64,000 nt of DNA from a virus (IMGVR_UViG_3300046724_000152:1-64000), one strand, 5' to 3'; positions 2,408-50,019 are shown, numbered from the stretch's first letter. The notes: generated by a model from the sequence alone, not told the origin. Program-made: numbers and translations.

Positions 2408-3117
2408 GCCTGAACTATACCTCATATGTCGATCAGGTCGCCAACCTGATGGTCATCGGCTCCACGGATGCCAACTTCCAGACCATGCTGCCGGGGATGA
2501 TCGACTATGCCGAGAACAGGATCTACCGGGAGCTGGACCCGCTCTATGCCCAGGTCACGGATACAACCGCCCTGACATCCTCTGGCGATAGAAACTTCAT
2601 CCCGCCAACCTCACTGGGCAACTTCATCACCATCGACAGCCTCAGCATCATCACCCCACTGGGGACGACCTCATCTAATGGTTCCAGAAGCTCACTGATG
2701 CCGGTTGCGCCAGAGGTGATAACCACTCTGTGGCCATCAAACCGGACTGTGACAGGGGTGCCGACCATGTTTGCAGTCAGGTCGCCGACAACGGTCTTGT
2801 TGGGTCCTGTACCGGATGCGGCCTATGCAACCGAGGTTGTCGGTCTGCAACGGCCAACCAGCCTGAGTACCTCGAACTCAAGCACCTTCCTGACCCAGTA
2901 TTGCCCGGATCTTTTTATCGCTGCATCGATGGTGTTTGGCTTTGGCTATATGCGTGACTTCGGCGGCCAGTCTGACAATCCGCAAGGAGCCACTTCCTGG
3001 GAGACCCAATACAAGACTCTGTTTGCCTCCGCAGCAATGGAGCAGTCCAGAGCCAAGTGGGAGTCCGATGGCTGGACTTCTCAGGCCCCGGCACCTCTGG
3101 CTGGGAAGAGGACCTGA
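2404..3117 (+). CDS. tail adaptor / tubular protein
   Basis: LNYTSYV...IDYAENRIYREL...LGPVPDAAY...PDLFIAAS, family-typical motifs; lies just before the nozzle gene. Confidence 0.6.
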   Translation: MSLNYTSYVDQVANLMVIGSTDANFQTMLPGMIDYAENRIYRELDPLYAQVTDTTALTSSGDRNFIPPTSLGNFITIDSLSIITPLGTTSSNGSRSSLMPVAPEVITTLWPSNRTVTGVPTMFAVRSPTTVLLGPVPDAAYATEVVGLQRPTSLSTSNSSTFLTQYCPDLFIAASMVFGFGYMRDFGGQSDNPQGATSWETQYKTLFASAAMEQSRAKWESDGWTSQAPAPLAGKRT

Positions 3118-3120
3118 TTC

Positions 3121-5142
3121 ATGCCAATGGCCTCAGTCACACTTCGACCTACCGTCGATGTGGAGCGGACTCTTTCGTTGAATGAGGCCGGAATTTCCGT
3201 CTCTCAGTTGATCCGGTTCAGGAACGACCTGATCGAAACGCTTGGCGGATGGCAACAGTATATACCGACACTGATTCCATCTACAGTGCGCGACTTGCAT
3301 CCCTGGCAGGACGTTGCCGGAGTCAAGCATCTCGGCATTGCCGCGACTCAGAACCTGATCGTCGCCAGCAGCGCCGGGGCTATGACAGACATCACCCCGC
3401 AGATATTGATTACCAATCCATCGGTTGATGTCAGCGTTACTCTTGGCAGTTGTGTCGTTCGCATCAACGATCCGAACAGTGGTCCGGCACCATATAATTC
3501 TGTCTACTTCAACACTCCGATTTCTATCGCCGGTCTATATCTGAATGGCTCGTATAAGATACAGACAGTTCTAAGCACTGGCCGATATGAAATTTTCTCT
3601 AGTATCGCATCGACAGCCACTATCGGGTCGAGTGGAATATTACCGACATTCACGGTCTCGTCCGGCTCGCCAACGATTGTCGTTACGTCTCCTAACAATG
3701 GATATCTGGCTATCTCTGGAATCCAGCAGCAATTCTTAGCGCCGACCACAATAGGCAGCAATCTCATTGTTGGTCACTACAGCATCGCCAGTGTCATCGA
3801 TAGCACTCAATATACGATTGTCGATAATACACTCGCCAGCACCACACTTACCTCCACGATGAATGGCGGGCTTGCTCAGTTTCAGTATTACATTACCCAA
3901 GGTGTGCAAACGACCGGCGCTGGATTCGGTATTGGCGGCTTTAGCAGCGGTGGATTTGGTGGAACGGGAATCACCTTTGCCGGAGCCACCGGCACTCCGA
4001 TCATGGCCCTGGATTGGAGCCAGGATAACTGGGGTGCAACGCTTCTGGCATGTCCCACCGATGGAGCAATCTACGCCTACTCGCCGGAAAGTGGATTCTT
4101 CACCGCTCAGGTTGTAGCAACAGCGCCGTTCTTTAATGGCGGCATCTTCATCTCTCAGCCACAACAGATCCTGGTGGCCTGGAGATCGGTGCAATCCTCC
4201 GGAGTTCAGGACAATCTAATCGTCTGCTGGTCCGATGCCCTGGATTATACCAACTGGACAATATCCAATGCGACTGCTGCCGGACGATTTAAATTCTCCG
4301 GTGGATCTATCATCATGGGTGGCCTCCAGGCTCCAAACTATGGGGTGATCTGGACCGATATCGATGCCTGGATCATGCAGTATGTCGGCGGCACCGTCAT
4401 CTTCAACTTCACCAAGGTCGGCACTGGCTGCGGACTTATTGGACAGCATGCTGCCGGTGTTATTGCCGGTAGCGTCTTTTGGTGCGGCTCCAGCAACTTC
4501 TTTACCATCAGCGCCAGTGGCGTCGAGGTCGTGCCCTGCACTGTCTGGGACTACATATTCCAGAACCTGAACCCTACCAATACCTACAAGATTCGCTGTG
4601 CCCCGAATTCATCGTTCAATGAGATCACTTGGTTTTTCCCATCATCTAATGCGACAGAGAATGACTCCTATGTAAAGTACAACATCCTCACCAAGTCGTG
4701 GGATTACGGTTTGATGCCCAGGACGGCCTGGGTGGATATCTCTGTTCTTGGTAATCCGATTGCCGCCGATACCTTAGGCACAATAGTCCAGCATGAGGTT
4801 GGAACGGTCCAGTCTGGCGTCAGCTCGACAGCATTCCAGACCGGCTGGTTCTCGATCACCGAAGGCAATGATCTGGCATTCGTTGATTATGTCTTGCCAG
4901 ACTTCATCTGGGGTCTGCTCGATGGCAGCAAGAATGCCTCGGTCGATATAACCTTCTATTCCGCCAATTATCCAGGTGACGCGCCAACCGCTTACGGGCC
5001 GTTTACGGTAACTGAATCGACTGAATATATCTCGCCGAGACTTCGCGGCAGGCTGATGTCGATTACGATCCACAGCAACAGTCAGTCATTCTGGCGGCTT
5101 GGTCGAATCAGATATCGCTTTGCTCTGGCAGGGAGACGCTAA
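3121..5142 (+). CDS. tail nozzle / DNA stabilisation protein (beta-propeller, P22 gp10-like role)
   Basis: 673 aa; WSQDNWG, WSDALDYTNW, FNEITWFFPS, RTAW and C-terminal WRLGRIRY motifs. Confidence 0.7.
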   Translation: MPMASVTLRPTVDVERTLSLNEAGISVSQLIRFRNDLIETLGGWQQYIPTLIPSTVRDLHPWQDVAGVKHLGIAATQNLIVASSAGAMTDITPQILITNPSVDVSVTLGSCVVRINDPNSGPAPYNSVYFNTPISIAGLYLNGSYKIQTVLSTGRYEIFSSIASTATIGSSGILPTFTVSSGSPTIVVTSPNNGYLAISGIQQQFLAPTTIGSNLIVGHYSIASVIDSTQYTIVDNTLASTTLTSTMNGGLAQFQYYITQGVQTTGAGFGIGGFSSGGFGGTGITFAGATGTPIMALDWSQDNWGATLLACPTDGAIYAYSPESGFFTAQVVATAPFFNGGIFISQPQQILVAWRSVQSSGVQDNLIVCWSDALDYTNWTISNATAAGRFKFSGGSIIMGGLQAPNYGVIWTDIDAWIMQYVGGTVIFNFTKVGTGCGLIGQHAAGVIAGSVFWCGSSNFFTISASGVEVVPCTVWDYIFQNLNPTNTYKIRCAPNSSFNEITWFFPSSNATENDSYVKYNILTKSWDYGLMPRTAWVDISVLGNPIAADTLGTIVQHEVGTVQSGVSSTAFQTGWFSITEGNDLAFVDYVLPDFIWGLLDGSKNASVDITFYSANYPGDAPTAYGPFTVTESTEYISPRLRGRLMSITIHSNSQSFWRLGRIRYRFALAGRR

Positions 5143-18963: not shown

Positions 18964-19268
18964 TAGTCTTTCCTTGGATTAACGATTGGCGGGACTGCTT
19001 TATTCAGGCTGAAGTATTTGCATGATGGCGTGTCGAACGGAATTTTAGATCCATCCTTCTCCATCATGGTCGCGTATTTCTCACACTTACCGTTCTTCAG
19101 TGTACCTCCTCGATGAGTGCCCCGATTGCTCTTGTAGCCATTGAATTCGTAATGCTCGCACTCACGACAGGTTGTCCTCTTCGGCCCTGTTCCAGCCCAG
19201 AAGGCCATTCCAGGCGGAGTCTTGTCGCGTAAGTCATCGACTGATTTATCGACTACCGTTAGTTTCAT
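18963..19268 (-). CDS. Cys-rich hypothetical protein
   Basis: CRECEHY...C...SCKYF. Confidence 0.6.
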   Translation of the reverse strand: MKLTVVDKSVDDLRDKTPPGMAFWAGTGPKRTTCRECEHYEFNGYKSNRGTHRGGTLKNGKCEKYATMMEKDGSKIPFDTPSCKYFSLNKAVPPIVNPRKD

Positions 19269-20002
19269 ATTTCTTCCCTGTATGACGCTTCGACTCCAGG
19301 AGGAAGGTCTCCGGTTGCACGGCGATACTCTCGTGCCAGCTTCAGGATGGCTTCCTTGATTTCGTCGTTGGCTCCCATTTCTTGGAGTGCGGCTTGTGCG
19401 TCAACGACAACGAGCGTTTCTTTGGTCTTGAGGCTGACCGCTCGTGAGAAGCCGCCGGTAATTTTGACGTGGGTTTCTTTCTCCGTGAGGGCTGCTGCTC
19501 TTTGGGATTTCTCGAAGTCACGGAAGGCAATATCGGCATCTGCGACATGAGCCGCAACATCAACTCCAAGTTCTCCGTGATTAGCTGACTCAATTGCTTC
19601 ACGTTCGAGACGCTCAGCTTCACGCGCTTTGATCTCGGCTTCTCTAGCAAGTCCAGCAGCAACTCGATTTGCTTCTTCTCTAATGCGTCTTTCTTCTTTA
19701 ATAAAAGCCGTGAGTCGATCCGATAGCGTATCAACGACTTTAGAAATTCTTGCGGCGACTGGTCGGTATGAATTGTTGATTTCTTTGACTTCGTCATTAA
19801 GTGGTCCAACTCTTTTTTTGCGCTCATCTTCCATATCCTGGATAGCTAATTTTCCTCTATCGAGGAAAAGCTTGGCTTCTTTAGAAGATTCACTATTGAT
19901 AACTGGATTTTCTGCCATCCAAGCAGAAATATCTTTCATCGTTTGATCAGTAATTTCGATCATTCCTGGTGGAGAATTATGCCCGATAGCTGCATCGTTC
20001 AT
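19265..20002 (-). CDS. coiled-coil phage protein (Gam/Gp157-like recombination-module type)
   Basis: IGHNSPP start, long coiled coil, LPPGVE C-terminal motif; its SD GAGGT comes from the last array pentamer. Confidence 0.55.
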   Translation of the reverse strand: MNDAAIGHNSPPGMIEITDQTMKDISAWMAENPVINSESSKEAKLFLDRGKLAIQDMEDERKKRVGPLNDEVKEINNSYRPVAARISKVVDTLSDRLTAFIKEERRIREEANRVAAGLAREAEIKAREAERLEREAIESANHGELGVDVAAHVADADIAFRDFEKSQRAAALTEKETHVKITGGFSRAVSLKTKETLVVVDAQAALQEMGANDEIKEAILKLAREYRRATGDLPPGVEASYREEI

Positions 20003-20009
20003 TTATTGG

Positions 20010-20641
20010 ACCTCACCATGCCATGCCATGCCTAGCCCCGCCCAACCGGGCCTCTCCATTCCGCACCCTGTATCGCCGCGCCATGCCTCTCCTGGCCGGA
20101 CCACACCTCACCCAGCCATGCCTCGCCCCAGATCGCCATGCCTTGCCACACCGCACCCGACCCGGCCTTGCCCTACCTTGCCAGATGTCGCCTCACCCAA
20201 CCATTCCACGCCTGACCTGACCTCACCCAGCCATGCCGCTCCTCGCCACAGATCGCCAGACCTAGCCGTGCCTCACCGCACCTAACCATCCCAGACCACG
20301 CCAGACCACGCCCTGCCCGAGGCCAAGCCACACCTCACCACACCTCGCCTGTCCCTACCCAACCTAGCCCTATGCAGACATGCCTCGCCCAACCTCGCCA
20401 TGCCTTACCTAGCCAAGCCTTGCCAGATATCGCCATGCCGCACCCTTCCAAAGATCGCCATGCCTCACCAATCCGCACCTCACCAAGCCAATCCCAGCCT
20501 TGCCTTGCCGAACCAAATATCGCCATGCCCTACCTAACCCCGCCATGCCTTGCCGCGCCGCACCTTGCCCGATGTCGCCATGCCATGCCCAACCTTGCCA
20601 AAACAAGCCAGTCCTAACCCTACCGCGCCAGAACATGCCAG
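20010..20641 (-). repeat. pentameric GGY-NN array (about 126 pentamers), candidate guide ncRNA array
   Basis: The + strand parses as RCC-NN in strict 5-nt register: 62 pentamers (20010-20319), a 2-nt slip, then 64 pentamers (20322-20641). About 114 keep CC; the NN positions vary. Confidence 0.9.
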
Positions 20642-20648
20642 AGCCTTA

Positions 20649-20682
20649 ACCTAGACCGCTCCATTTCTGGAACGGTCTAGGT
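20649..20682 (-). ncRNA. 15-bp RNA hairpin with GAAA tetraloop at the 5' end of the array
   Basis: Minus-strand RNA ACCUAGACCGUUCCA-GAAA-UGGAGCGGUCUAGGU. The G-U pair and GNRA loop work only on the minus strand. Confidence 0.75.
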
Positions 20683-20694
20683 AAAGCATTGAGA

Positions 20695-21312
20695 TTACTC
20701 GTAATTAACGATGCCAAATCGGCCAAATGTTGGTCGATGATCACCGATTCCCACTAATCTACCAGCACTTTCAATAGTTTCTCGCAAAATATTTCGATCA
20801 ATATATTCCGGCAACAAAACCATCAGCTCGATAGTCGCCTTCCAGCCAGCCCTGAAGGCTGGACGGACTCTGTTGATGCCCTGACGTTGGACAGTGACCC
20901 GGCACTTATCGAGGTAATCCCACTCCTTGGTACCCATGCTGGCAAGGTGTGTGGTTGCGACGATACCGGCCTTGTAGAGATCCATCGCACTCTTTCGTGG
21001 CGAGCGTGGATCCTGCCGGAATTTTGCAGCGTTGATGATCGAGCCGCGAAGATACAAACCAGGAAGGCAGATGTAGCCTTCCTCATTACGGTAGACATAG
21101 CTCTCGACGTTGTCGGTTTTCTTCGCCTTGGAGTTCTTGGCTGCTGCGCCTTTTGCATCAACCTCTTCGGCATTCCAGCGATGGAAGATCAGATCCGCTG
21201 CTCCCTCGATGGTCACCTCTACCGAGTATGGCTCGCTGAAGGAAATCGGCTCCTCGCCGCCATTGGTCGGCTCCTTGATAACAATAACCTTAGCTGTGCC
21301 TTGTTTAGCCAT
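20695..21312 (-). CDS. stand-alone Cas7/RAMP-like RNA-binding protein
   Basis: VEVTIEGAADLIFH (beta1), ICLPGLYLRGSIINAA (cf. IPGSSLKG), RVRPAF..GWKATIEL, and a C-terminal Gly-rich loop GIGDHRPTFGRF; SD ACGGAG. Confidence 0.75.
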   Translation of the reverse strand: MAKQGTAKVIVIKEPTNGGEEPISFSEPYSVEVTIEGAADLIFHRWNAEEVDAKGAAAKNSKAKKTDNVESYVYRNEEGYICLPGLYLRGSIINAAKFRQDPRSPRKSAMDLYKAGIVATTHLASMGTKEWDYLDKCRVTVQRQGINRVRPAFRAGWKATIELMVLLPEYIDRNILRETIESAGRLVGIGDHRPTFGRFGIVNYE

Positions 21313-21331: not shown

Positions 21332-21583
21332 TTAAGTTACTTTCTCTTTCTCAGCATAGTTTCTCAGTGCTTTTCTTATTGCATCAGCAGCTTCTTGTAC
21401 CTCCTTCTGAGCTTGCTCAAGTTGACCGATAGCTTCTGTTGGAAAGTCAGGAGCTACAGGCATCATAGTGACCCAACTGACAATCTGTTTTGCGTCACTC
21501 TGAATGTGCTTGGCACGAATGCCGATGACCGAGAGATACGGTGCAACAAGCCGATCCCATTCCGTCAATGTTTGATGTTTCAC
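21332..21583 (-). CDS. hypothetical protein
   Basis: 83 aa, coupled to the upstream gene, same operon as the RAMP-like gene. Confidence 0.6.
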   Translation of the reverse strand: MKHQTLTEWDRLVAPYLSVIGIRAKHIQSDAKQIVSWVTMMPVAPDFPTEAIGQLEQAQKEVQEAADAIRKALRNYAEKEKVT

Positions 21584-21834
21584 TTAACCCTCCAGCAACG
21601 AAAGCCTTCAGGGGTCTTGCGGATTGAGAATTTGGTGCCTTCATTGCGACGGCAGAAGTAAGAAGCAGCGCCTCGGCAACGAGCGGTCAACCTCATATCT
21701 TCGCCAACCAGGAAACTGTCACCAACCTTCATGTTAGCAAACGGCCAACTAAGCCAACTGGCCAAGCCAGGAGGTGGTGTAGGAACGTCGCTCTCGATCT
21801 TAAAAGCCTGCTTGATCAGTCGCGGTCGTTTCAT
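21580..21834 (-). CDS. small phage DNA-binding-type protein
   Basis: WPFANMKVGDSFLV...FSIRK...RCWRVK; SD GGAGA before ATG 21834. Confidence 0.65.
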   Translation of the reverse strand: MKRPRLIKQAFKIESDVPTPPPGLASWLSWPFANMKVGDSFLVGEDMRLTARCRGAASYFCRRNEGTKFSIRKTPEGFRCWRVK

Positions 21835-21862
21835 GTGGTCTCCGTTGTTGAATTGTTCATAT

Positions 21863-21898
21863 CCCAAATTGGGTGTTGCAGTCAAGCCCGGAATGGGC
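21863..21898. promoter_or_regulatory. two CCC-N5-GGG operator-like palindromes in a divergent intergenic region
   Basis: CCCAAATTGGG 21863-21873 and GCCCGGAATGGGC 21886-21898. Confidence 0.55.
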
Positions 21899-21911: not shown

Positions 21912-22097
21912 ATGACACTTGAAACATTTCTGATAATACGCGGGATCAGCACAGCGCAGTTTGCCAAAACGTCAGGCTATCCCTTCGCCACCGTGGCCAA
22001 GTGGCGGCAACGGATCAGGATTCCACGTCCTGCCGCCATGCTGAAGATTCAGAAACTCACAAAAGGAAAAGTGAAGCCTCATGACTGGTACCGGTGA
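21912..22097 (+). CDS. Cro-like HTH regulator
   Basis: 61 aa; STAQFAKTSGYPFATVAKWR...IQKLTKGKVKPHDW. Confidence 0.8.
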   Translation: MTLETFLIIRGISTAQFAKTSGYPFATVAKWRQRIRIPRPAAMLKIQKLTKGKVKPHDWYR

Positions 22098-22506
22098 ATG
22101 GCGGTTCTGGACCGCTGATAAAGTCGAGAAAGTTAAGACGATGTGGGCGGACGGGTATTCCGCCTCACGGATTTCCGAGGAGATCCCCGGTTCGACTAAG
22201 AACTCCATTATTGGTAAGGTGCATAGGCTGCACCTGCCGGAGCGAAAGAAGCGAAAAAATCCAAGTCACTTCAAGCGGGAGAAGGTCAGGGCCATGGTCA
22301 TGGTCAAGCCCAAGCCAAAGCCAGCCCCGAAACCCAGGCCCAAGGATGGCATCCCATTCCTGGAGGCCGATTCCACCACCTGCCGGTCGGTCCAAGGGCG
22401 GGATCCCAACGGAATCCTGGTTTGGTTCTGTCCCAAGCCCAAGGCGGCCAATCAGTCGTTCTGCCCCCACCATCTGGGCATCTATTACACCGGGAGCCGC
22501 CGATGA
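22081..22506 (+). CDS. gcrA: GcrA-like cell-cycle regulator
   Basis: WTADKVEKVKTMWADGYSASRI...TKNSIIGKVHRL and C-terminal TCR...FC...FCPHH. Confidence 0.85.
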   Translation: MTGTGEWRFWTADKVEKVKTMWADGYSASRISEEIPGSTKNSIIGKVHRLHLPERKKRKNPSHFKREKVRAMVMVKPKPKPAPKPRPKDGIPFLEADSTTCRSVQGRDPNGILVWFCPKPKAANQSFCPHHLGIYYTGSRR

Positions 22507-23057
22507 CGATCAAGGAGATCACCGAGAATGCCAAGCAGATCAGGGACCGGCTCAGACACCCGCCGAATGCGGTTCATGACACTGGTATTGACCTAACCAA
22601 GAAATCCAGCTCGCATCGTGGTGACGAGCCCAATCCGGATCCACCGATCAAGAAGATGCTTGAGATGCTTCCGGAGCCACCCAGAAAGCGCTATCAGTTC
22701 GCGCCTTCCAGGAAGTGCCTGATCTTTGATGATATTCTAGAGGCCGTCTCGACGCACTATGGAGTCTCGATAGAGGCCATCAGGGGTCCAAGCAGGCGGA
22801 CCCACACTGGTTTTGCCCGCTTTGTCGTGGTTCACCTTGCCATCAAGCTGTCCAAGAAGCCCTCGCTCTCCGCCATAGGCAGGAACCTGAACAAGGACCA
22901 TACTTCGATCCTTCATGCCAGGAACCGCATCAAAGCAATCATTGCTGGCAATGCCCAGGTAGCAGCCGAGGTCAAGATGCTGGAGACGTACCTTGAAAGA
23001 CTCCATCACTATCGATCTTCCATTCCCTCCGAGCGTCAATTCTATTTGGAGGGGTAG
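22503..23057 (+). CDS. DnaA C-terminal (domain IV) HTH protein
   Basis: ILEAVSTHYGVS...ARFVVVHL...SLSAIGRNLNKDHTSILHA. Confidence 0.85.
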   Translation: MTIKEITENAKQIRDRLRHPPNAVHDTGIDLTKKSSSHRGDEPNPDPPIKKMLEMLPEPPRKRYQFAPSRKCLIFDDILEAVSTHYGVSIEAIRGPSRRTHTGFARFVVVHLAIKLSKKPSLSAIGRNLNKDHTSILHARNRIKAIIAGNAQVAAEVKMLETYLERLHHYRSSIPSERQFYLEG

Positions 23058-23379
23058 TGGCAAGAGGGTCTACCGGACCAAGGAGTACATCTCCTGGCTC
23101 ACCAACGCCAATGGCCACTGGCTGCTCCAGCGAAGCTCCATGCCGGTCAGATCCATCCCAGAGCATTATTCGCTCAAACTGATCTTGCATGCCCCTGACA
23201 AGCTGATCAGGGATGTCGGCAACTACGAGAAGGTGTCATCCGACTTCCTGCAAATGGCGAGGATCGTCCGAAACGACTGTCTGTGCCTCGATCTTCATGT
23301 CGTCTGGGGCAGCTCCGCAGATGCCCCTCACGGGGCCAGAATGATCGTAAGTCCGATGGAATTGGAGGGTACCTACTAG
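22993..23379 (+). CDS. rusA: RusA-family Holliday junction resolvase
   Basis: LPFPPSVNSIWR...RDVGNYEKVSSDFL...NDC. Confidence 0.8.
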   Translation: MKDSITIDLPFPPSVNSIWRGSGKRVYRTKEYISWLTNANGHWLLQRSSMPVRSIPEHYSLKLILHAPDKLIRDVGNYEKVSSDFLQMARIVRNDCLCLDLHVVWGSSADAPHGARMIVSPMELEGTY

Positions 23380-25926: not shown

Positions 25927-26102
25927 GTCTTATCCACGCTTGAAAGATCAGCTTCAATTTGCAGCAAGATCGACGAAAGCTCGTGGTCACGCTGTGCGAG
26001 ATCGGCCCGCAGTCGCTCGATAACGTCGGCGGCGTCGGCAAAGATCGGAACTCCGTTAGCTGTAGTTGCAAGCTTGCGCAGCCGTTCAACGATGTCGGTC
26101 AT
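25923..26102 (-). CDS. MTDIVERL-family small protein 2 (59 aa, not in the ORF track)
   Basis: Hand translation MTDIVERLRKLATTANGVPIFADAADVIERLR...VDKT*; ATGA overlaps on both sides. Confidence 0.7.
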   Translation of the reverse strand: MTDIVERLRKLATTANGVPIFADAADVIERLRADLAQRDHELSSILLQIEADLSSVDKT

Positions 26103-27902: not shown

Positions 27903-28166
27903 TCATTTCTCCATTGTTGAACTGCTGTCAGTAAGGGCGACTCTAGCCATTTCTCTAGCGTGTCCCAGTAGCGCAGAGCGTAGCCGCTCATCTTGCTCGC
28001 GAGTAATCGCAATCTCCTGGCCCTGTTCCTTGGCAAGCTTCCGCAGCCGCTCAATCTCGTCGGCGGCTTCATGCATAATTGGCCGCGCCGTATTGGCGTC
28101 AAGCCAATACCCGGCCACATCAACTTTAGTATGCTGATAACGCAGCCGCTCAACGATGTCGGTCAT
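27903..28166 (-). CDS. MTDIVERL-family small protein 3
   Basis: MTDIVERLR...EAADEIERLR. Confidence 0.7.
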   Translation of the reverse strand: MTDIVERLRYQHTKVDVAGYWLDANTARPIMHEAADEIERLRKLAKEQGQEIAITREQDERLRSALLGHAREMARVALTDSSSTMEK

Positions 28167-28393
28167 GTCTTGATACCAAGCAGCTTGCGAAAATAATCAT
28201 CGATGCAGGTCTCGCAGGCCTCATAACCGAAGGCACCGTGTGGACACTTGTCGCCCTTACTCACGGCTGGGCCATAGTCGCCGTTCAGATAATCTTGGAT
28301 ACCCTTTTGCAGCCGCTCGATTTCGTCGGCGGCCTCACGACACAGGTCAACCGAGAATGAACCATCGCGCAGCCGCTCAACGATGTCGGTCAT
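28163..28393 (-). CDS. MTDIVERL-family small protein 4 with Cys-rich C-terminus
   Basis: MTDIVERLR...EAADEIERLQ...CPHG...CETC. Confidence 0.7.
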   Translation of the reverse strand: MTDIVERLRDGSFSVDLCREAADEIERLQKGIQDYLNGDYGPAVSKGDKCPHGAFGYEACETCIDDYFRKLLGIKT

Positions 28394-44842: not shown

Positions 44843-45973
44843 TCACTGGAGCGAGTCCCCTACTTCCTTGAAGATCTGACGCATGATCTTTCGCTGCTTC
44901 CTGTTGGGCGAATACGAGCAGACCTCGAAGGTCATCAGGTCGCAATCCTCCAGCGTTTCCGCTATTGGATGCACATCTGGCATGTTGAACACCCGATGTA
45001 GTGGCGGTGCGTAGCCCTCACGCAACGGCAGACCGAAGCTGTTGATGCGGGCAACGAACTGCCGACGATCCCAATGCCAGATCTTGGCGGCCCAGATGTA
45101 ATAGACATGATGGCAACCGTCCCGCTCGACCGGCGGATGGATGTTCGGATAGTCGAACACCATGTCGGTCAGCTCTAACGCCAGCTCCCTGCGATTCTCG
45201 ATGATACCCGGACCTTTGCTCAACTGCGCCGAGGCCAGAGCCGCAATCGGCTCCGTCATTCTGAGGTTCAGACCCATGATCCCAGGCCGCAGCTCGCCGT
45301 GATTGACGGCATCTCTTACCTTGAGGGCGAGGTCGTCGTCGTCGCTGACGACGATTCCTCCTTCCCCAGTCTGGAGATGTTTATGAATGTTAAGGCTAAA
45401 CACACCAAGATGGCCGACAGTGCCAGCGTAATGATCACCGACTTTGGCAAACGGACTCTGCGCATTGTCTTCGATCATCCAGACTTTGTTGTGGTCACAC
45501 CAACGTCTTATCTCTTCGAGATAAGCCGGATGACCGAACAGGTTGGTGACGATAACAGCTTTTGGCTTTCCCTTCGAACCGCCGATCTGCTTAAGATCCA
45601 TGGAGAATGTAACAGGCTCGATATCGATGAATTCTACATTTGCTCCAAGGATTTTAGCGCAGGATGCCGTGGCACTCATGGTGGTGGCAGGGCACCAGAC
45701 CCTATCTCCGGGCCCAATGCCGACCGCCATGCATGCCGCCATCAACCCCGATGTGGCAGAATTACAGGGCACGGCATGTCGTACACCGAACGTAGATTGC
45801 CACTCGTCTGCGAGGCGCTGAACCCAATAGCCACCAGCATGATGACCACCAAGATAACCACTAAAAGGACGGCCCAAGGTCGATAGTACATAGCTCCTCT
45901 CCAGCCAGTTGCGGGTCTCGAACGGCTTCAGCACCCCAAGCTTGCTCTTCAACTTCGGCCCTAGTTTGTGCAT
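44843..45973 (-). CDS. DegT/DnrJ/EryC1/StrS aminotransferase (PseC-like)
   Basis: NSATSGL, IEDNAQS, FSLNIHKHLQTGEGG (PLP lysine), GLNLRMTE. Confidence 0.88.
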   Translation of the reverse strand: MHKLGPKLKSKLGVLKPFETRNWLERSYVLSTLGRPFSGYLGGHHAGGYWVQRLADEWQSTFGVRHAVPCNSATSGLMAACMAVGIGPGDRVWCPATTMSATASCAKILGANVEFIDIEPVTFSMDLKQIGGSKGKPKAVIVTNLFGHPAYLEEIRRWCDHNKVWMIEDNAQSPFAKVGDHYAGTVGHLGVFSLNIHKHLQTGEGGIVVSDDDDLALKVRDAVNHGELRPGIMGLNLRMTEPIAALASAQLSKGPGIIENRRELALELTDMVFDYPNIHPPVERDGCHHVYYIWAAKIWHWDRRQFVARINSFGLPLREGYAPPLHRVFNMPDVHPIAETLEDCDLMTFEVCSYSPNRKQRKIMRQIFKEVGDSLQ

Positions 45974-46812
45974 CGTATGCTCTGGCACATCCTGGCGATG
46001 TCCTGCTCCATGTTCGGCAGGGTAAAGCCGAACTTGCTCTCGACCCTGGTCAGGTCCAGCCTTGTGTCGAGCGGACGTGGAATCCGCCCTGGGATACCGA
46101 CCGACTCCACCGGTCGCAGCCCCTTCAGGCTGTGGCCGAGGCCGTTGGCCAACAGCGCGGCAAACTTGGCTTTCGACATGCCGCTGGAAGAACCGAGATT
46201 GAAGGTGCCGGTTCGTGGCGTGTTGGCCATGGCCACCAGCCGTTCCGCCAAGGTCTGAGCCCACAGCGGACTGAACATGGCATCGGTATAGACATTGAAC
46301 TCGACGCCTGACTTCAGCTTGCCGATCATGAAATCGGCCAGACTGCTCCTGGCCGGTGATCGCGCTGACCCATAGAAATTGGTCCGCACGATCAGGTGGT
46401 TCTGCACCTTGGCGGCGGCAAACTCGCCCATGAACTTGCTCATGCCGTACATATTGATGGGATTCTCGCTCTTGGAATGCTCGCGGTGCGGGCCGTTGCC
46501 GGAGTACACCATGTCGGTTGATATATAAATCAACCGGCAGTTCCCCGGCATGTGAGCAGCGATGTTCTCCACCATGCCGCAGTTGTAGAGTACCGCCTTG
46601 TTCGGATCCTTCTCGCACTCATCGATGTCGGTCAGCGCCGCAGCATGAACGATCATCTGCGGCGCTGTTTTTGCCATCCACGTCCTGACGCTGTCCCAGT
46701 CGGTCAGATCGCAACTGCTTCTGGCCAAGCCCTCGACAGTGCCAAGCCTGGAGAATGCCATCTTCAGGTACGGCCCCAGCAGCCCGGTGTCGCCCGTGAC
46801 CAGGATCCTCAT
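45961..46812 (-). CDS. RmlD-like NAD(P)-dependent sugar-nucleotide reductase
   Basis: ILVTGDTGLLG, HAAALTDID.CE, YISTDMVY, YGMSK. Confidence 0.85.
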   Translation of the reverse strand: MRILVTGDTGLLGPYLKMAFSRLGTVEGLARSSCDLTDWDSVRTWMAKTAPQMIVHAAALTDIDECEKDPNKAVLYNCGMVENIAAHMPGNCRLIYISTDMVYSGNGPHREHSKSENPINMYGMSKFMGEFAAAKVQNHLIVRTNFYGSARSPARSSLADFMIGKLKSGVEFNVYTDAMFSPLWAQTLAERLVAMANTPRTGTFNLGSSSGMSKAKFAALLANGLGHSLKGLRPVESVGIPGRIPRPLDTRLDLTRVESKFGFTLPNMEQDIARMCQSIRCTN

Positions 46813-46829
46813 GTCCGTGTCAGCTCCTG

Positions 46830-47036
46830 TTACTTGGCGAGGTGGGTCCAGATCTTGCCGATCCGGTTGTCGTACTTCTGGATGTGGTTGATGACGCGAC
46901 CGGATTCCCTGGGTGCCTCGCGAACGGCGATGGCCAACAGCTCCATCCACTTGTCGTTGTTCCTGACCCTGATCTTGGCCATCCGGTCGATCAGGCTGCG
47001 CTTGGTCTTCGGTAACTCTTTGCGCTTCGTTCTCAT
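46830..47036 (-). CDS. small basic hypothetical protein
   Basis: IRVRNNDKWMELLAIA...; ATGA overlap with pseB. Confidence 0.55.
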   Translation of the reverse strand: MRTKRKELPKTKRSLIDRMAKIRVRNNDKWMELLAIAVREAPRESGRVINHIQKYDNRIGKIWTHLAK

Positions 47037-47986
47037 AACATCCCTCTCAGTTGTTCGATGGTTAACCAATCGACATTAGTGTCGCTGGTGTAGCGCCATC
47101 CTGGAGGCACACGATTCTCGTAGTCTCTTTTTTTATGTCCAGGCTGGTCGATGCAGTAGAAGTTTGCGAAATCGGTTGTGTTCAGGCTTTCGTCTTCGGT
47201 GATCAGTGTCTCGTGGATTTTTTCTCCAGGTCTGATGCCGGTGTTGAATTCCAGAAATCCGTAATCGTCGCAAACAGCAACTGCAAGATCTCTGATTCTA
47301 ATCGATGGAATCTTCGGTATGAGAATCTTCGAGTGAATTCCGACACTAGCCAACTCCTCTGCGTAGAGGACCAGCTTAACGCTCTGATCCATGGTGATCC
47401 AGAACCGCGTCATTCTTTCATCGGTAACCTTGAGGACTTTGCCCTCCGCCTTTCGCTTCTTAAATAATGGAAGAACAGAACCCCGCGAACCGGCAACATT
47501 GCCATATCGCACAACATTGTAATGGCACCCGCCAGCGGCCAAGGCATTCGCTGCGACAAATATCTTTTCCGCTGCAAGCTTCGATGCACCATAAAGGTTG
47601 ATTGGATTAACGGCCTTATCTGTCGATAGTGCGACAACTCGCTGGACCTTAGCTCTGAGCGAAGCCTTAACCACATTCTCAGCCCCTGTGACATTGGTGG
47701 CGATGCATTCGGTTGGATTGTACTCGGCGGTCGGCACGATCTTCAGCGCGGCGGCATGGATCACGGTATCGATGCCACGCATTGCCATCTCCAGACGGTC
47801 GAGGTCGCGGACATCGCCAATGAAGAAGCGCAATCGCTCGTCGTTGAAGCTATGCGCCATCTCCTCCTGGGTATGTTCGCCCCTGGAGTAGATTGCGATT
47901 CGCTCGACACTCGGATCCTTGAGTATCCGACTGGCGAAGGCTTGGCCGAACGAGCCTGAGCCGCCAGTGATCAGGACGGATTTCAT
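47033..47986 (-). CDS. pseB: UDP-N-acetylglucosamine 4,6-dehydratase (inverting)
   Basis: ITGGSGSFG, FFIGDVRD, HAAALKIVPTAEYNP, STDKAVNPINLYGASK, RYGNVAGSRGSV, MTRFWIT, GIRPGEK. Confidence 0.92.
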   Translation of the reverse strand: MKSVLITGGSGSFGQAFASRILKDPSVERIAIYSRGEHTQEEMAHSFNDERLRFFIGDVRDLDRLEMAMRGIDTVIHAAALKIVPTAEYNPTECIATNVTGAENVVKASLRAKVQRVVALSTDKAVNPINLYGASKLAAEKIFVAANALAAGGCHYNVVRYGNVAGSRGSVLPLFKKRKAEGKVLKVTDERMTRFWITMDQSVKLVLYAEELASVGIHSKILIPKIPSIRIRDLAVAVCDDYGFLEFNTGIRPGEKIHETLITEDESLNTTDFANFYCIDQPGHKKRDYENRVPPGWRYTSDTNVDWLTIEQLRGML

Positions 47987-50019
47987 GCGGACTTTCTTAA
48001 GGATTGACCGGCGATAGTACCTTTGAGGCGACTCGACATGATGCCTTGCTGCAAGACATCATTGATTACATCCATGGTATGTTTATAGGCTCGACGGATG
48101 ATCTCGATCTCTGGATCTTTAATGGCGTAAGATACGCAATTAGCATTCAGGATCAGCACACCCATCCGCGCCATTTCCTGGGTGAACAGAGCCTGGATCT
48201 GTTCCTTGGTTGCGCCAAGGAAATCATGAACGTCCAGTTTCAGGAGCGGTGGCGAGCCACGAAACGCAATTGGACCAGAATAGTGTGATGTTCTTTCAAG
48301 TAGCGGTGCTTCAGATCGGATCTTCAATCCAACAGAGTATAGATGATCAAGGACGTTCTCCCGTTCCATCTTCTTGATAGTGGCGAGTGCAGCAGCCATC
48401 GACAGAGTGTCACCAAAGAAGGTGCCGGAGAAGAACACGCCGAGGTGGCCGTTCAGCATCTTCATGATCCCGGCATCACCGACCAGAGCCGAGATCGGCA
48501 TTCCGTTGGCCATCGACTTGCCGAAGCAAGCAAGATCGGGTGTGACACCAAAATACTCCTGACCACCGCCCATGGCGTAACGGAAGCCAGTCTGGATCTC
48601 ATCGAAGATCAGAATGATTTCGTTCCTGGTACACCATGACCGTAATGCCTGGAGGTATTCCCTGTCGTGGGTTGGCTCGACAATGACGGCGGCGACATCG
48701 CTCCAGTCTTCGCCCCAGTCTCTTAATTCATCGAGATCACCGTATTCGATCTTGTGTGACAGATTGGTTACGGATTCTGGAATTCCTTTGTTCTTTCCTT
48801 CCAGTGTTGAGGCTGACCAATCAGCCCAGCCATGGTAGGATCCGATTAGAATATGATCCCGTTCGGTGTAGGCCCTGGCCAGCCTGACTGCCGCCGATGT
48901 CACATCGGTACCGGACTTGCCGAACTGGACCTTATCGGCACAAGGAATCAGGTCGCACAGCTTCTCGCTTAACTCACATTCAAGCTTGGTGGCCAGACTG
49001 AAGCTCATGCCGCAGTTCAGTTGCCGCCGCACCGCCTCATCAACGTCAGGATCGCGGTAACCTAGGACAACAGGAAGTAGAGCATTAACAAGATCAACAT
49101 AGTCGTTCCCATCAACATCAAAAATCCTCGCACCATCGCCATGAGAGGCGAATAGTGGAGCCCCGCCCCTGGGATACCAAAGAGCAGACTTCGAGTATGT
49201 TTGGGACCCAAGGGGAATTGTCCTGGTGGCTCGTACCAGCAGCTCATCTGACCGTTGATATGTTCGTTCTGGTAATCGTTCTCCAGCGAGGTCCTGGTAG
49301 AACCGCTCATTTCGAATGGCTCCAGCATTGATTTGCCTCAGGTGTGGGTTGTCATCGAGGATCCGCATGATATGCATGCATGTCGGCGGGAAAGCCAGCG
49401 GCAGTTGCTTGGCGATTTCCTTGCACAGCTCGTAGTCTTCCTTGGTGTCGAGGACCCATCGCTCCTTGTGTGCCCCAGGAAACGGGCAAATCAGGTATTC
49501 CTGGGAGAACCGATCCCGGTTGCGGATGATCCACTGTGTCACACAGTCCCGATCTGTCTTCCTGGTGGTCTCTCTCCAGGCTGTTTCCAGCGCATCGAAG
49601 GTGAGACACTCGACATCCAATCCGTCTGGCCATGTCGGCTGGTTGGAACAGTACGAAGCACCCGTCGTCTTTTGTAGTTGGACGACCTGTCCGACCACAT
49701 AAGGGTCGAGGAACGGACAATCACAGGTGATTCGCAGGATAATGTCGGCTTTATAGTCTTTCGCACATTGATAATAGCGGTTCAGCACATCCTTTTCTGA
49801 GCCACGGAAGCAATCGATGCGGTTCTGTCTGCAATCCTTGGCTAGAACATCATCGGATTCCAGCGTGGTGGTGGCGATCACCACCTGATTGACTCCTGGA
49901 GAGTTGACTAACGCCCGCCAGACCCAGCGATACACCGGCATGCCTCCGAGTGGAGCCATCACCTTGCCAGGGAACCGCGTCGAGCCCATCCTAGCCTGGG
50001 CAATCGCAACGACTTTCAT
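47983..50019 (-). CDS. fusion: SpsF/PseF-type cytidylyltransferase plus class III aminotransferase
   Basis: QARMGSTRFPGKV, FRGSEKDVLNRY, RITCDCP; then DVDGNDYVD, FDEIQTGFR, PDLACFGKSMANGMP. Confidence 0.9.
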   Translation of the reverse strand: MKVVAIAQARMGSTRFPGKVMAPLGGMPVYRWVWRALVNSPGVNQVVIATTTLESDDVLAKDCRQNRIDCFRGSEKDVLNRYYQCAKDYKADIILRITCDCPFLDPYVVGQVVQLQKTTGASYCSNQPTWPDGLDVECLTFDALETAWRETTRKTDRDCVTQWIIRNRDRFSQEYLICPFPGAHKERWVLDTKEDYELCKEIAKQLPLAFPPTCMHIMRILDDNPHLRQINAGAIRNERFYQDLAGERLPERTYQRSDELLVRATRTIPLGSQTYSKSALWYPRGGAPLFASHGDGARIFDVDGNDYVDLVNALLPVVLGYRDPDVDEAVRRQLNCGMSFSLATKLECELSEKLCDLIPCADKVQFGKSGTDVTSAAVRLARAYTERDHILIGSYHGWADWSASTLEGKNKGIPESVTNLSHKIEYGDLDELRDWGEDWSDVAAVIVEPTHDREYLQALRSWCTRNEIILIFDEIQTGFRYAMGGGQEYFGVTPDLACFGKSMANGMPISALVGDAGIMKMLNGHLGVFFSGTFFGDTLSMAAALATIKKMERENVLDHLYSVGLKIRSEAPLLERTSHYSGPIAFRGSPPLLKLDVHDFLGATKEQIQALFTQEMARMGVLILNANCVSYAIKDPEIEIIRRAYKHTMDVINDVLQQGIMSSRLKGTIAGQSLRKSA

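What the first reader, a model, noticed from the sequence alone, without database searches (positions are those of the whole stretch)
20010..21312. Stand-alone Cas7/RAMP-like gene followed by a GGY-NN pentamer array: candidate phage RNA-guided system with a non-contiguous guide code
Seen: a 205-aa ORF with RAMP hallmarks (LPGxxLRG after beta1, terminal Gly-rich loop GIGDHRPTFGRF). Downstream on the same strand come a hairpin and 632 nt of strict 5-nt periodicity, in which three positions are nearly fixed (GGY on the transcript) and two vary freely. No cas1/2/3/5/6/8/10 and no repeat-spacer CRISPR array are present. Established: Cas7-family RAMPs polymerise along guide RNA with a fixed number of nucleotides per subunit. 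Inference: each subunit grips one GGY and displays the NN dinucleotide, so the concatenated NNs form the targeting information, possibly read with a skipped base in the target. With no nuclease partner, the likely output is binding/silencing of competing phages or host genes. From memory this matches the architecture reported as VIPR (viral interference programmable repeat); I cannot verify that here.
Basis: partly seen in the sequence, partly recalled or inferred. Interest (0 to 1): 0.96.

Follow-up and report, generated by a model that had tools for sequence, protein, structure and literature searches.

The report
Phage VIPR locus with long guide array
A soil phage carries a genuine example of the VIPR RNA-guided DNA-silencing system first described in 2026: a small Cas7-like protein gene followed by about 12 guide RNAs built from 126 five-letter GGY-NN repeats. 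It is a real new member of a known class, and what its guides target is still unknown.

Summary
A 205-aa minus-strand ORF (21312..20695) is followed by a stable hairpin and 632 nt of GGYNN pentamers (126 units, 114 starting with GG). The one correction is a 2-nt register shift at 20318-20319, which splits the array into two in-phase blocks.

- VIPR is published: bioRxiv 10.64898/2026.04.26.720920, .720927 and 10.64898/2026.10.15.759431.
- The protein is a sequence homologue of the solved SUSP1 Vipr protein (PDB 36pp; profile E 3.5e-17).
- It keeps the published GGY-contact residues.
- 142 of 160 loci examined (159 relatives plus this one) carry same-strand GG-pentamer arrays next to the gene.

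Specific to this locus:
- The array has no tail, ribozyme or spacer between guides.
- It is punctuated by in-phase GG-less units (Y-M-Y-N-N), usually after GGCGA (Fisher p 4e-7). This gives about 12 segments, 8 of them with 9-13 repeats.
- No conserved accessory (vap) gene was found.

No natural target was found above background, but the large collections could only be searched for exact matches. No RNA data exist. The scan has noted VIPR-like loci before on other DNA (361 notes, at least 295 genomes). Verdict: new member of a known kind, moderate-to-low interest.

The parts
20695..21312 (-). vipr gene: 205-aa Vipr-family RAMP protein (RRM core, thumb hairpin about residues 133-153, G-loop 188-198)
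20643..20687 (-). Stable hairpin between the vipr stop codon and the array, with no U-tract. Lineage-specific.
   Evidence: dG -35.7 kcal/mol, z -6.5. A relative's contig has a different hairpin sequence at the same site (loose end at 20689). Hairpins here are not a clade-wide feature: the median best hairpin in relatives is about the same as in shuffles.
20320..20639 (-). vrRNA array block A: 64 in-phase GGYNN units (56 with GG). Candidate guides S1-S7.
20318..20319 (-). 2-nt insertion (CG) that shifts the pentamer register between blocks A and B
   Evidence: Comparable register shifts occur in relatives' arrays.
20008..20317 (-). vrRNA array block B: 62 in-phase GGYNN units (58 with GG). Candidate guides S8-S12. 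It ends 5 nt before the ATG of the next gene.
20570..20574 (-). Example of a GG-less in-phase delimiter unit (CATCG). The others, given by first base on the minus strand, start at 20634, 20604, 20519, 20454, 20429, 20379, 20374, 20252, 20187, 20132 and 20072.
   Evidence: 12 units of the form Y/G-M/T-Y-N-N, with a pyrimidine at position 3 in 12 of 12. Eight follow GGCGA directly: 8/13 against 3/99 for other units, Fisher p 3.9e-7.
20455..20514 (-). Candidate guide S4 (12 repeats), an example of a segment bounded by delimiters on both sides and ending in GGCAT GGCGA
   Evidence: The other long segments are S3 20520-20569, S6 20380-20424, S7 20320-20369, S8 20253-20317, S9 20188-20247, S10 20133-20182, S11 20073-20127 and S12 20008-20067.
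21332..21885 (-). Two small upstream ORFs (83 aa and 101 aa) in the same operon, function unknown, not conserved partners of vipr
   Evidence: No Pfam, PHROG or NCBIfam family. Singletons among the 160 loci.
19265..20002 (-). Downstream 245-aa gene on the same strand, weakly 'exonuclease'-like. Probably part of the phage recombination module rather than a VIPR accessory gene.
   Evidence: PHROG 10477 'exonuclease', E 8.4e-18. Singleton among the 160 loci.

Best explanation
This is a VIPR (Viral Interference Programmable Repeat) system on a complete ~75.5-kb soil or rhizosphere phage, probably one that infects an alphaproteobacterium.

Likely mechanism:
1. The vipr gene and the downstream array are most likely transcribed together from the minus strand.
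2. Vipr protomers bind the transcript, one per pentamer. By homology with the SUSP1 structure, H44 and D191 read G1, thumb R150 and H192 hold G2, and R193 with the G-loop forms the pyrimidine pocket.
3. The NN dinucleotides are left exposed as a gapped guide.
4. The GG-less in-phase units, mostly after GGCGA, and the 2-nt register shift interrupt the filament. This probably defines about 12 separate vrRNAs of 4-13 repeats, released by host RNases, without the 3' pseudoknot tail or ribozymes seen in other VIPR types.
5. Each ribonucleoprotein would bind double-stranded DNA that matches NN-x-NN-x (one skipped base), a footprint of 3n-1 bp, and repress transcription. The likely targets are rival mobile elements.

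Shown here: homology, fold, residue conservation, array anatomy, co-occurrence across relatives, no self-targets.

Inferred: transcription, processing at the delimiters, the skip rule in this clade, silencing, and the nature of the targets.
For: Published system and mechanism.

Protein:
- homology to SUSP1 Vipr, PDB 36pp (E 1.9e-5 single sequence; E 3.5e-17 family profile over nearly the full length)
- AF2 pLDDT 94

Contact residues, mapped from the HMMER alignments and conserved across 64 family members: H44 53/64, R150 63/64, D191 58/64, aromatic or His at 192 in 50/64, R193 62/64, G197 64/64.

Array:
- 126 units with information concentrated in GGY
- unique in the genome
- in the first 81 related loci, 72 have in-phase GG arrays on the vipr strand and only 2 on the opposite strand
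- 142 of 160 loci have same-strand arrays within 1.5 kb of the gene

Delimiter grammar: p 3.9e-7. Eight of the 12 segments have 9-13 repeats, inside the published range of 9-16.

No self-target, as published for other VIPRs. No cas genes or CRISPR array. Intact and invariant in four metagenome runs.

Phage context: structural genes, terminase, portal, RusA, GcrA; CheckV completeness 100%.
Against: No expression or processing data: no RNA run holds the locus.

No natural target was found above shuffled or chance background in any of these:
- the phage's own genome
- 81 related loci
- five whole related phages
- IMG/VR (exact 9-10-unit cores of six guides)
- JGI metagenomes (two guides)
- 401 alphaproteobacterial genomes (one guide, up to 3 mismatches)

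A codon-position test of the NN composition was inconclusive.

No conserved vap gene and no 3' tail, both typical of the characterised type II systems. The delimiter grammar is not shared by most relatives, whose break units usually lose only the second G, so its role in processing is conjecture. The 1-nt skip rule has been demonstrated only for type II, a distant relative of this clade.
Confidence: 0.88

Rival explanations
1. The locus is a VIPR system, but the array is loaded as one or two very long filaments rather than about 12 discrete vrRNAs, or is cut at positions unrelated to the GG-less units. On this reading those units are ordinary repeat degeneracy.
For: Relatives have tracts of 103-147 units with few or no breaks. 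[quoted passage not shown] All delimiters are exactly 5 nt, so the register runs on across them.
Against: Breaks in this array follow GGCGA far more often than chance allows (8/13 against 3/99, p 3.9e-7). They replace both Gs while keeping the pyrimidine, unlike the single-G degeneracy in relatives. The resulting segment lengths fall in the published vrRNA range.
Confidence: 0.2
2. The system destroys its targets instead of silencing them, with the downstream 245-aa 'exonuclease'-like gene acting as a nuclease accessory (vap), as in VIPR types III-V.
For: The gene starts 5 nt after the array on the same strand and matches PHROG 10477 'exonuclease' at E 8.4e-18. Types III-V carry predicted nucleases or helicases.
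Against: No homologue of this gene lies within 2.5 kb of vipr in any of the 159 related loci. It has no Pfam or NCBIfam nuclease domain. It sits in a phage replication and recombination module with RusA and a DnaA-like gene.
Confidence: 0.07
3. The pentamer tract is a structural DNA or RNA element unrelated to the neighbouring protein, for example G2N3 repeats forming two-tetrad G-quadruplexes, an origin, or a recombination hot spot, and the adjacency is coincidental.
For: GG every 5 nt on one strand could in principle form G-quadruplexes (inference, not computed). The array RNA folds only slightly better than shuffles, z -2.6.
Against: Strand-specific co-occurrence with vipr homologues in 142 of 160 loci across many phyla. 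Conservation of exactly the residues that read G1, G2 and Y3 in the solved structure. Free variation confined to the two NN positions.
Confidence: 0.02

Closest known systems
VIPR systems (Vipr + vrRNA). Experimental exemplar: type II of Escherichia phage SUSP1 and a Pseudomonas fulva prophage (bioRxiv 10.64898/2026.04.26.720920; structures in 10.64898/2026.04.26.720927, PDB 36pp).
   Same: Small (~20 kDa) single-RRM RAMP with thumb and G-loop. Conserved G1, G2 and Y3 contact residues. Same-strand GGY/NN pentamer repeats beside the gene. Phage-borne. No cas genes or CRISPR array. No self-targeting.
   Different: A distant relative: about 35% identity, by my count, over the C-terminal 70 residues of the HMMER alignment, and detectable only at E 1.9e-5 with a single sequence. 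W178 of SUSP1 is His here and Phe or Tyr in most of the clade. No vap1-like partner. No ~100-nt vrRNAs with a pseudoknot tail: instead a continuous 632-nt tract with 5-nt GG-less delimiters. Targets unknown.
VIPR 'staggered' vrRNA arrays (fig. S18 legend of 10.64898/2026.04.26.720920)
   Same: vrRNAs lie directly end to end, with no spacer, tail or ribozyme, so that the end of one marks the start of the next.
   Different: Only the legend could be read, as figures and data tables are not held. I could not check whether those arrays use a GGCGA plus GG-less-unit boundary, or which VIPR type they belong to. This locus therefore could not be assigned to one of types I-VII.
Class 1 CRISPR backbone RAMPs: Csm3 (type III-A) and Cas7 (type VII)
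   Different: 9-15% sequence identity and no hit to Pfam RAMPs. No Cas1 and no repeat-spacer array. Period of 5 nt with three bases sequestered, against 6 nt with one base flipped. Published VIPR targets are double-stranded DNA read with a gapped code.

Membership tests
VIPR | Protein is a homologue of published Vipr proteins | tested here: met
   PDB 36pp_D 'SUSP1 Vipr protein': E 1.9e-5 with the single sequence and E 3.5e-17 with the family profile, covering chain residues 5-188 of 202.
VIPR | Residues that read G1, G2 and Y3 in the cryo-EM structure (H17, R138, D177, W178, R179 of SUSP1) | tested here: met
   They map to H44, R150, D191, H192 and R193, from the alignments and the paper text. 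Conserved in 53, 63, 58, 50 (aromatic or His) and 62 of 64 homologues. W to H at 192 is a conservative difference.
VIPR | At least 4 tandem YNNGG/GGYNN repeats next to vipr on the same strand, GGY conserved and NN hypervariable | tested here: met
   126 units, 114 with GG. Information content 1.56/1.40/0.63 bits against 0.08/0.13. 142 of 160 loci (159 relatives plus this one) have such arrays.
VIPR | Individual vrRNAs of 9-16 repeats capped by a conserved 3' tail (type II architecture) | tested here: inconclusive
   8 of 12 delimiter-bounded segments have 9-13 repeats. There is no long tail, pseudoknot or hammerhead, only a recurrent GGCAT GGCGA plus one GG-less unit. The paper describes tail-less 'staggered' arrays, so a tail is not obligatory.
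VIPR | Accessory vap gene beside vipr ('typically' present; some published seed proteins are stand-alone genes) | tested here: not met
   The immediate neighbours (83, 101 and 245 aa) have no homologues at 159 related loci. The commonest neighbour families in the clade reach only 37/160 (unnamed) and 30/160 (RusA). This is not an obligatory feature.
VIPR | Non-CRISPR context on a virus or provirus | tested here: met
   A virus record of 75.5 kb, CheckV 100% complete, with no Cas1 or Pfam RAMP hit and no repeat-spacer array. Phage structural and packaging genes are present. Other cas families were not searched individually.
VIPR | vrRNAs are expressed and co-purify with Vipr | not testable with these tools
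   No RNA run holds the locus. This needs small-RNA sequencing and a pull-down.
VIPR | Guides match natural targets by the 1-nt skip rule (at least 80% NN match, above null) | tested here: inconclusive
   There was no match above shuffled-guide or chance expectation. The large collections could only be searched for exact 9-10-unit cores, so power was limited.
VIPR | No self-targeting of the source contig | tested here: met
   Best skip-1 matches in the phage's own 75.5-kb genome equal the shuffle background.
CRISPR-Cas class 1 (type III / VII Cas7) | Repeat-spacer CRISPR array and adaptation or effector cas genes | tested here: not met
   No Cas1, no Pfam RAMPs hit, no CRISPR-like repeats in the genome.

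The most novel reading that the evidence does not exclude
The GGCGA + GG-less in-phase unit (Y-M-Y-N-N) may be a previously undescribed way of marking vrRNA boundaries. A unit that keeps the pyrimidine and the 5-nt register but lacks the two guanines would leave one protomer-sized gap in the Vipr filament. Host RNases would cut the exposed linker, so a continuous tail-less transcript would be divided into guides purely by where the protein cannot bind. This would be distinct from pseudoknot tails, hammerhead ribozymes and the 1-nt-overlap 'staggered' arrays already reported.
Probability: 0.2. Interest if true: 0.5.

Novelty: new member of a known kind. Interest (0 to 1): 0.3.

Why it matters
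VIPR is a very recent discovery, and only type II has been characterised in depth. Types III and V have small-RNA expression data only.

This locus belongs to a distant Vipr clade that is large (6,743 homologues in the 90%-clustered protein database, 360 in IMG/VR) and unusually well conserved: 50-67% identity across Proteobacteria, Planctomycetota, Actinobacteria, Firmicutes, Cyanobacteria, Patescibacteria and one archaeal MAG.

It is a compact test case for three questions:
- Does the 1-nt skip rule hold outside type II?
- How are guides cut out of a continuous tail-less tract?
- Can Vipr work without an accessory protein?

It does not change the current picture of VIPR.

Tried and rejected
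**Target search**
- Boundary-free diagonal scoring of all 126 NN units, with skips of 0-3 nt, against the phage's own genome and 81 related loci gave only background. The perfect skip-3 hits are the array itself.
- Per-guide full-length scoring against five whole related phage genomes (356 kb) plus the phage's own genome equalled the shuffled-guide null.
- Exact 9-10-unit cores of S4, S7, S8, S9, S11 and S12 in IMG/VR gave 0 hits.
- S9 in JGI metagenomes gave 0 hits. The S8 9-unit core gave 4 hits, but the flanking units match at only 2-3 of 8 positions and three hits are one conserved gene, so this is chance.
- S12 with up to 3 mismatches in 401 alphaproteobacterial genomes gave 1 hit against about 0.5 expected, by my estimate.
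- A log-likelihood test of whether NN composition resembles codon positions 1-2 separated the models by only a few bits, so it is inconclusive.

**Host**
- The best terminase match in 401 alphaproteobacterial genomes is 41% identical. One of those genomes, G050, is unpublished, and no claim here rests on it.
- The nearest GenBank phages are at most 48% identical.
- No tRNA genes.

**Expression**
- No RNA holder is listed.

**Other negative results**
- Rfam, including hammerheads: nothing.
- No sigma-70 consensus promoter.
- A conserved hairpin after the stop codon is not a clade feature.
- Pattern-based locus searches with the single protein found nothing, and alignment A1 was too diverse to use.

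**Tools and data not available**
- Assignment to VIPR types I-VII was not possible, because the figures and data tables of the paper are not held.

Full report
**What is in the sequence**

Eight nucleotides after its stop codon a 19-bp hairpin (20643-20687) folds at -35.7 kcal/mol, z -6.5 against shuffles, with no U-tract after it.

From 20639 down to 20008 the strand reads as pentamers. There are 64 units in one register, then a 2-nt insertion (CG, 20318-20319), then 62 units in a second register. Of the 126 units, 114 start with GG, and 103 of those have C or T at position 3. Information content is 1.56, 1.40 and 0.63 bits at positions 1-3, against 0.08 and 0.13 bits at positions 4-5, and all 16 dinucleotides occur.

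Nothing similar exists elsewhere. In-phase GG counts reach 19 of 20 consecutive pentamers only in this tract, against a maximum of 8 on the + strand and single digits on the rest of the minus strand. The full 75.5-kb genome has no second array.

**The system is already published**

A literature search found three 2026 preprints on VIPR.
- The first reports a Vipr RAMP protein and vrRNAs made of alternating GGY/NN motifs. These recognise double-stranded DNA through the NN bases with one skipped base per unit, repress transcription, are mostly encoded by phages, and fall into seven types with varied array architectures and vap accessory genes.
- The second gives cryo-EM structures and names the residues that read G1, G2 and Y3.
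- The third shows VIPR deciding the outcome of competition between a phage and its satellite.

**Protein membership**

Pfam and NCBIfam give no family, and PHROGs gives only family 4652 of unknown function. A phmmer search of PDB sequences returns one hit, 36pp chain D, 'SUSP1 Vipr protein', at E 1.9e-5 over the C-terminal 70 residues. A profile of 64 diverse homologues raises this to E 3.5e-17 over nearly the whole chain.

The HMMER alignments map the SUSP1 contact residues H17, R138, D177, W178 and R179 onto H44, R150, D191, H192 and R193. Across the 64 homologues these positions are H in 53, R in 63, D in 58, aromatic or His in 50, and R in 62. The protein is a Vipr, but a distant one from the type II exemplar.

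**Array membership and co-occurrence**

The family is large: 6,743 hits in the 90%-clustered database, 1,131 clusters at 50% identity, 360 relatives in IMG/VR and 79 in GTDB species genomes spread over many phyla.
- In the first 81 related loci, 72 carry in-phase GG arrays on the vipr strand and only 2 on the opposite strand.
- Across all 160 loci (159 relatives plus this one), 142 have a same-strand array within 1.5 kb: 50 upstream only, 42 downstream only, 50 both.
- This window's 627-632-nt array is the seventh longest. Relatives have continuous tracts of 103 and 147 units.
- No Rfam family, including hammerheads, matches the region.
- The genome has no Cas1, no Pfam RAMP hit and no CRISPR-like repeats.

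**Internal grammar of this array**

The 12 GG-less units all keep a pyrimidine at position 3 and all keep the 5-nt register. Eight of them directly follow the unit GGCGA, and GGCAT often precedes that. GGCGA is followed by a GG-less unit in 8 of 13 cases, against 3 of 99 for other units (Fisher p 3.9e-7).

Together with the 2-nt shift, these units cut the tract into about 12 segments of 4-13 repeats. Eight of them have 9-13 repeats, within the published vrRNA range of 9-16.

In relatives, break units mostly retain the first G (G at position 1 in 377 of 496) and GGCGA is not enriched before them (25 of 219), so this grammar is specific to the lineage.

I infer, without data, that the GG-less units are places where a protomer cannot dock, and that the exposed linker is cut by host RNases. 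The published 'staggered' arrays, where one vrRNA ends where the next begins, are the nearest described architecture, but only the figure legend could be read.

**Genomic context**

The contig is a virus record of 75.5 kb that CheckV rates as complete. It has virion, portal and terminase genes. The vipr operon lies next to a divergent module encoding GcrA-like, DnaA-C-domain and RusA proteins.
- The two small ORFs upstream of vipr and the 245-aa 'exonuclease'-like gene directly after the array have no homologues at any of the 159 related loci, so no vap-like partner is evident.
- The most frequent neighbours in the clade (an unnamed 178-aa protein, RusA, an AAA_24 ATPase and a DEAD/ResIII helicase) each occur at no more than 37 of the 160 loci.
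- The phage occurs in at least 24 soil and rhizosphere metagenome runs.
- In four of those runs the array is identical, apart from one low-depth contig with an in-register 10-nt, two-unit duplication.
- GcrA, together with the hosts of the nearest (at most 48% identical) GenBank phages, which are Roseobacter, Paracoccus, Pelagibacter and Caulobacter, points to an alphaproteobacterial host. This is not established.

**Targets**

Using the published rule (NN joined by one wildcard, both strands), I found no match above background in any of the searches below.
- the phage's own genome, consistent with the published absence of self-targeting
- 81 related loci
- five complete related phages

Exact-match scans of IMG/VR with 9-10-unit cores of six guides, and of JGI metagenomes with S9, returned nothing. 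The S8 core gave four metagenome hits whose flanking units match at chance level. One guide searched with up to 3 mismatches in 401 alphaproteobacterial genomes gave one hit, where by my estimate about 0.5 is expected. A codon-position likelihood test was inconclusive.

Because the large collections could only be searched for exact matches, this does not refute guide function. It leaves the targets unknown.

**Verdict**

The locus is a new member of the published VIPR class, from a widespread, strongly conserved and uncharacterised Vipr clade. It has a long tail-less array and a lineage-specific boundary motif. Transcription, processing, the skip rule in this clade and the targets are all inferred.

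The scan has already noted VIPR-like loci on other DNA many times (361 notes in at least 295 genomes). Interest is moderate to low, and the one element that might be new is the delimiter grammar.

Noticed in passing
window 26008-26098 and 28042-28389: Six copies of a 22-nt motif (consensus about CGCAGCCGCTCAAYNNNGTCGG) at irregular spacing (69, 99, 167 and 60 nt) in two clusters 2 kb apart. Possibly operator or iteron sites, or a repeated coding motif. Not CRISPR-like.
   Followed up: no
window 22081-23379: A phage-encoded GcrA-like cell-cycle regulator (PF07750, E 2.8e-17), a DnaA C-terminal HTH-domain protein (PF08299, E 5.7e-16) and a RusA-like resolvase, transcribed divergently from the vipr operon. 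GcrA points to an alphaproteobacterial host.
   Followed up: partly
L001 (Phage DSL-LC04, OR003939.1) 2707-3618: The Vipr homologue of this GenBank phage (58% identical) is annotated as a 'helix-turn-helix transcriptional regulator'. GG-pentamer arrays lie just upstream of it (L001:2707-2964) and are not annotated.
   Followed up: partly
G001:C1:38637-39011 (IMG/VR contig of L061, 96 kb): This related phage has a second, divergent vipr-like ORF (33% identity, E 2e-13) with one in-frame TAG, besides its main vipr gene.
   Followed up: no
proteins P0263, P0127, P0237: P0263 is a 4,382-aa predicted protein that matches the Vipr query in 22 separate stretches (best stretch at query residues 120-164). 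P0127 (336 aa, two stretches) and P0237 (553 aa) look like tandem or fused Vipr forms.
   Followed up: no
window 20290 (run X21) and loose ends at 20011, 20027: One metagenome contig carries an in-register 10-nt (two-unit) duplication in the array. Short contigs from the same soils share the array's last units but then diverge, hinting at different guide sets in related strains. Low depth, so weak evidence.
   Followed up: partly
L152 (Bathyarchaeia MAG), L146, L148: Very long same-strand GG-pentamer arrays (about 700-900 nt) flank vipr homologues in an archaeal MAG and two actinobacterial MAGs, showing how far this conserved Vipr clade reaches.
   Followed up: no
window 44843-50019: Two large aminotransferase-like genes (PHROG 3139 and 2736) lie within the sugar-pathway cluster that earlier notes read as a pseudaminic-acid pathway. 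Unrelated to VIPR.
   Followed up: no
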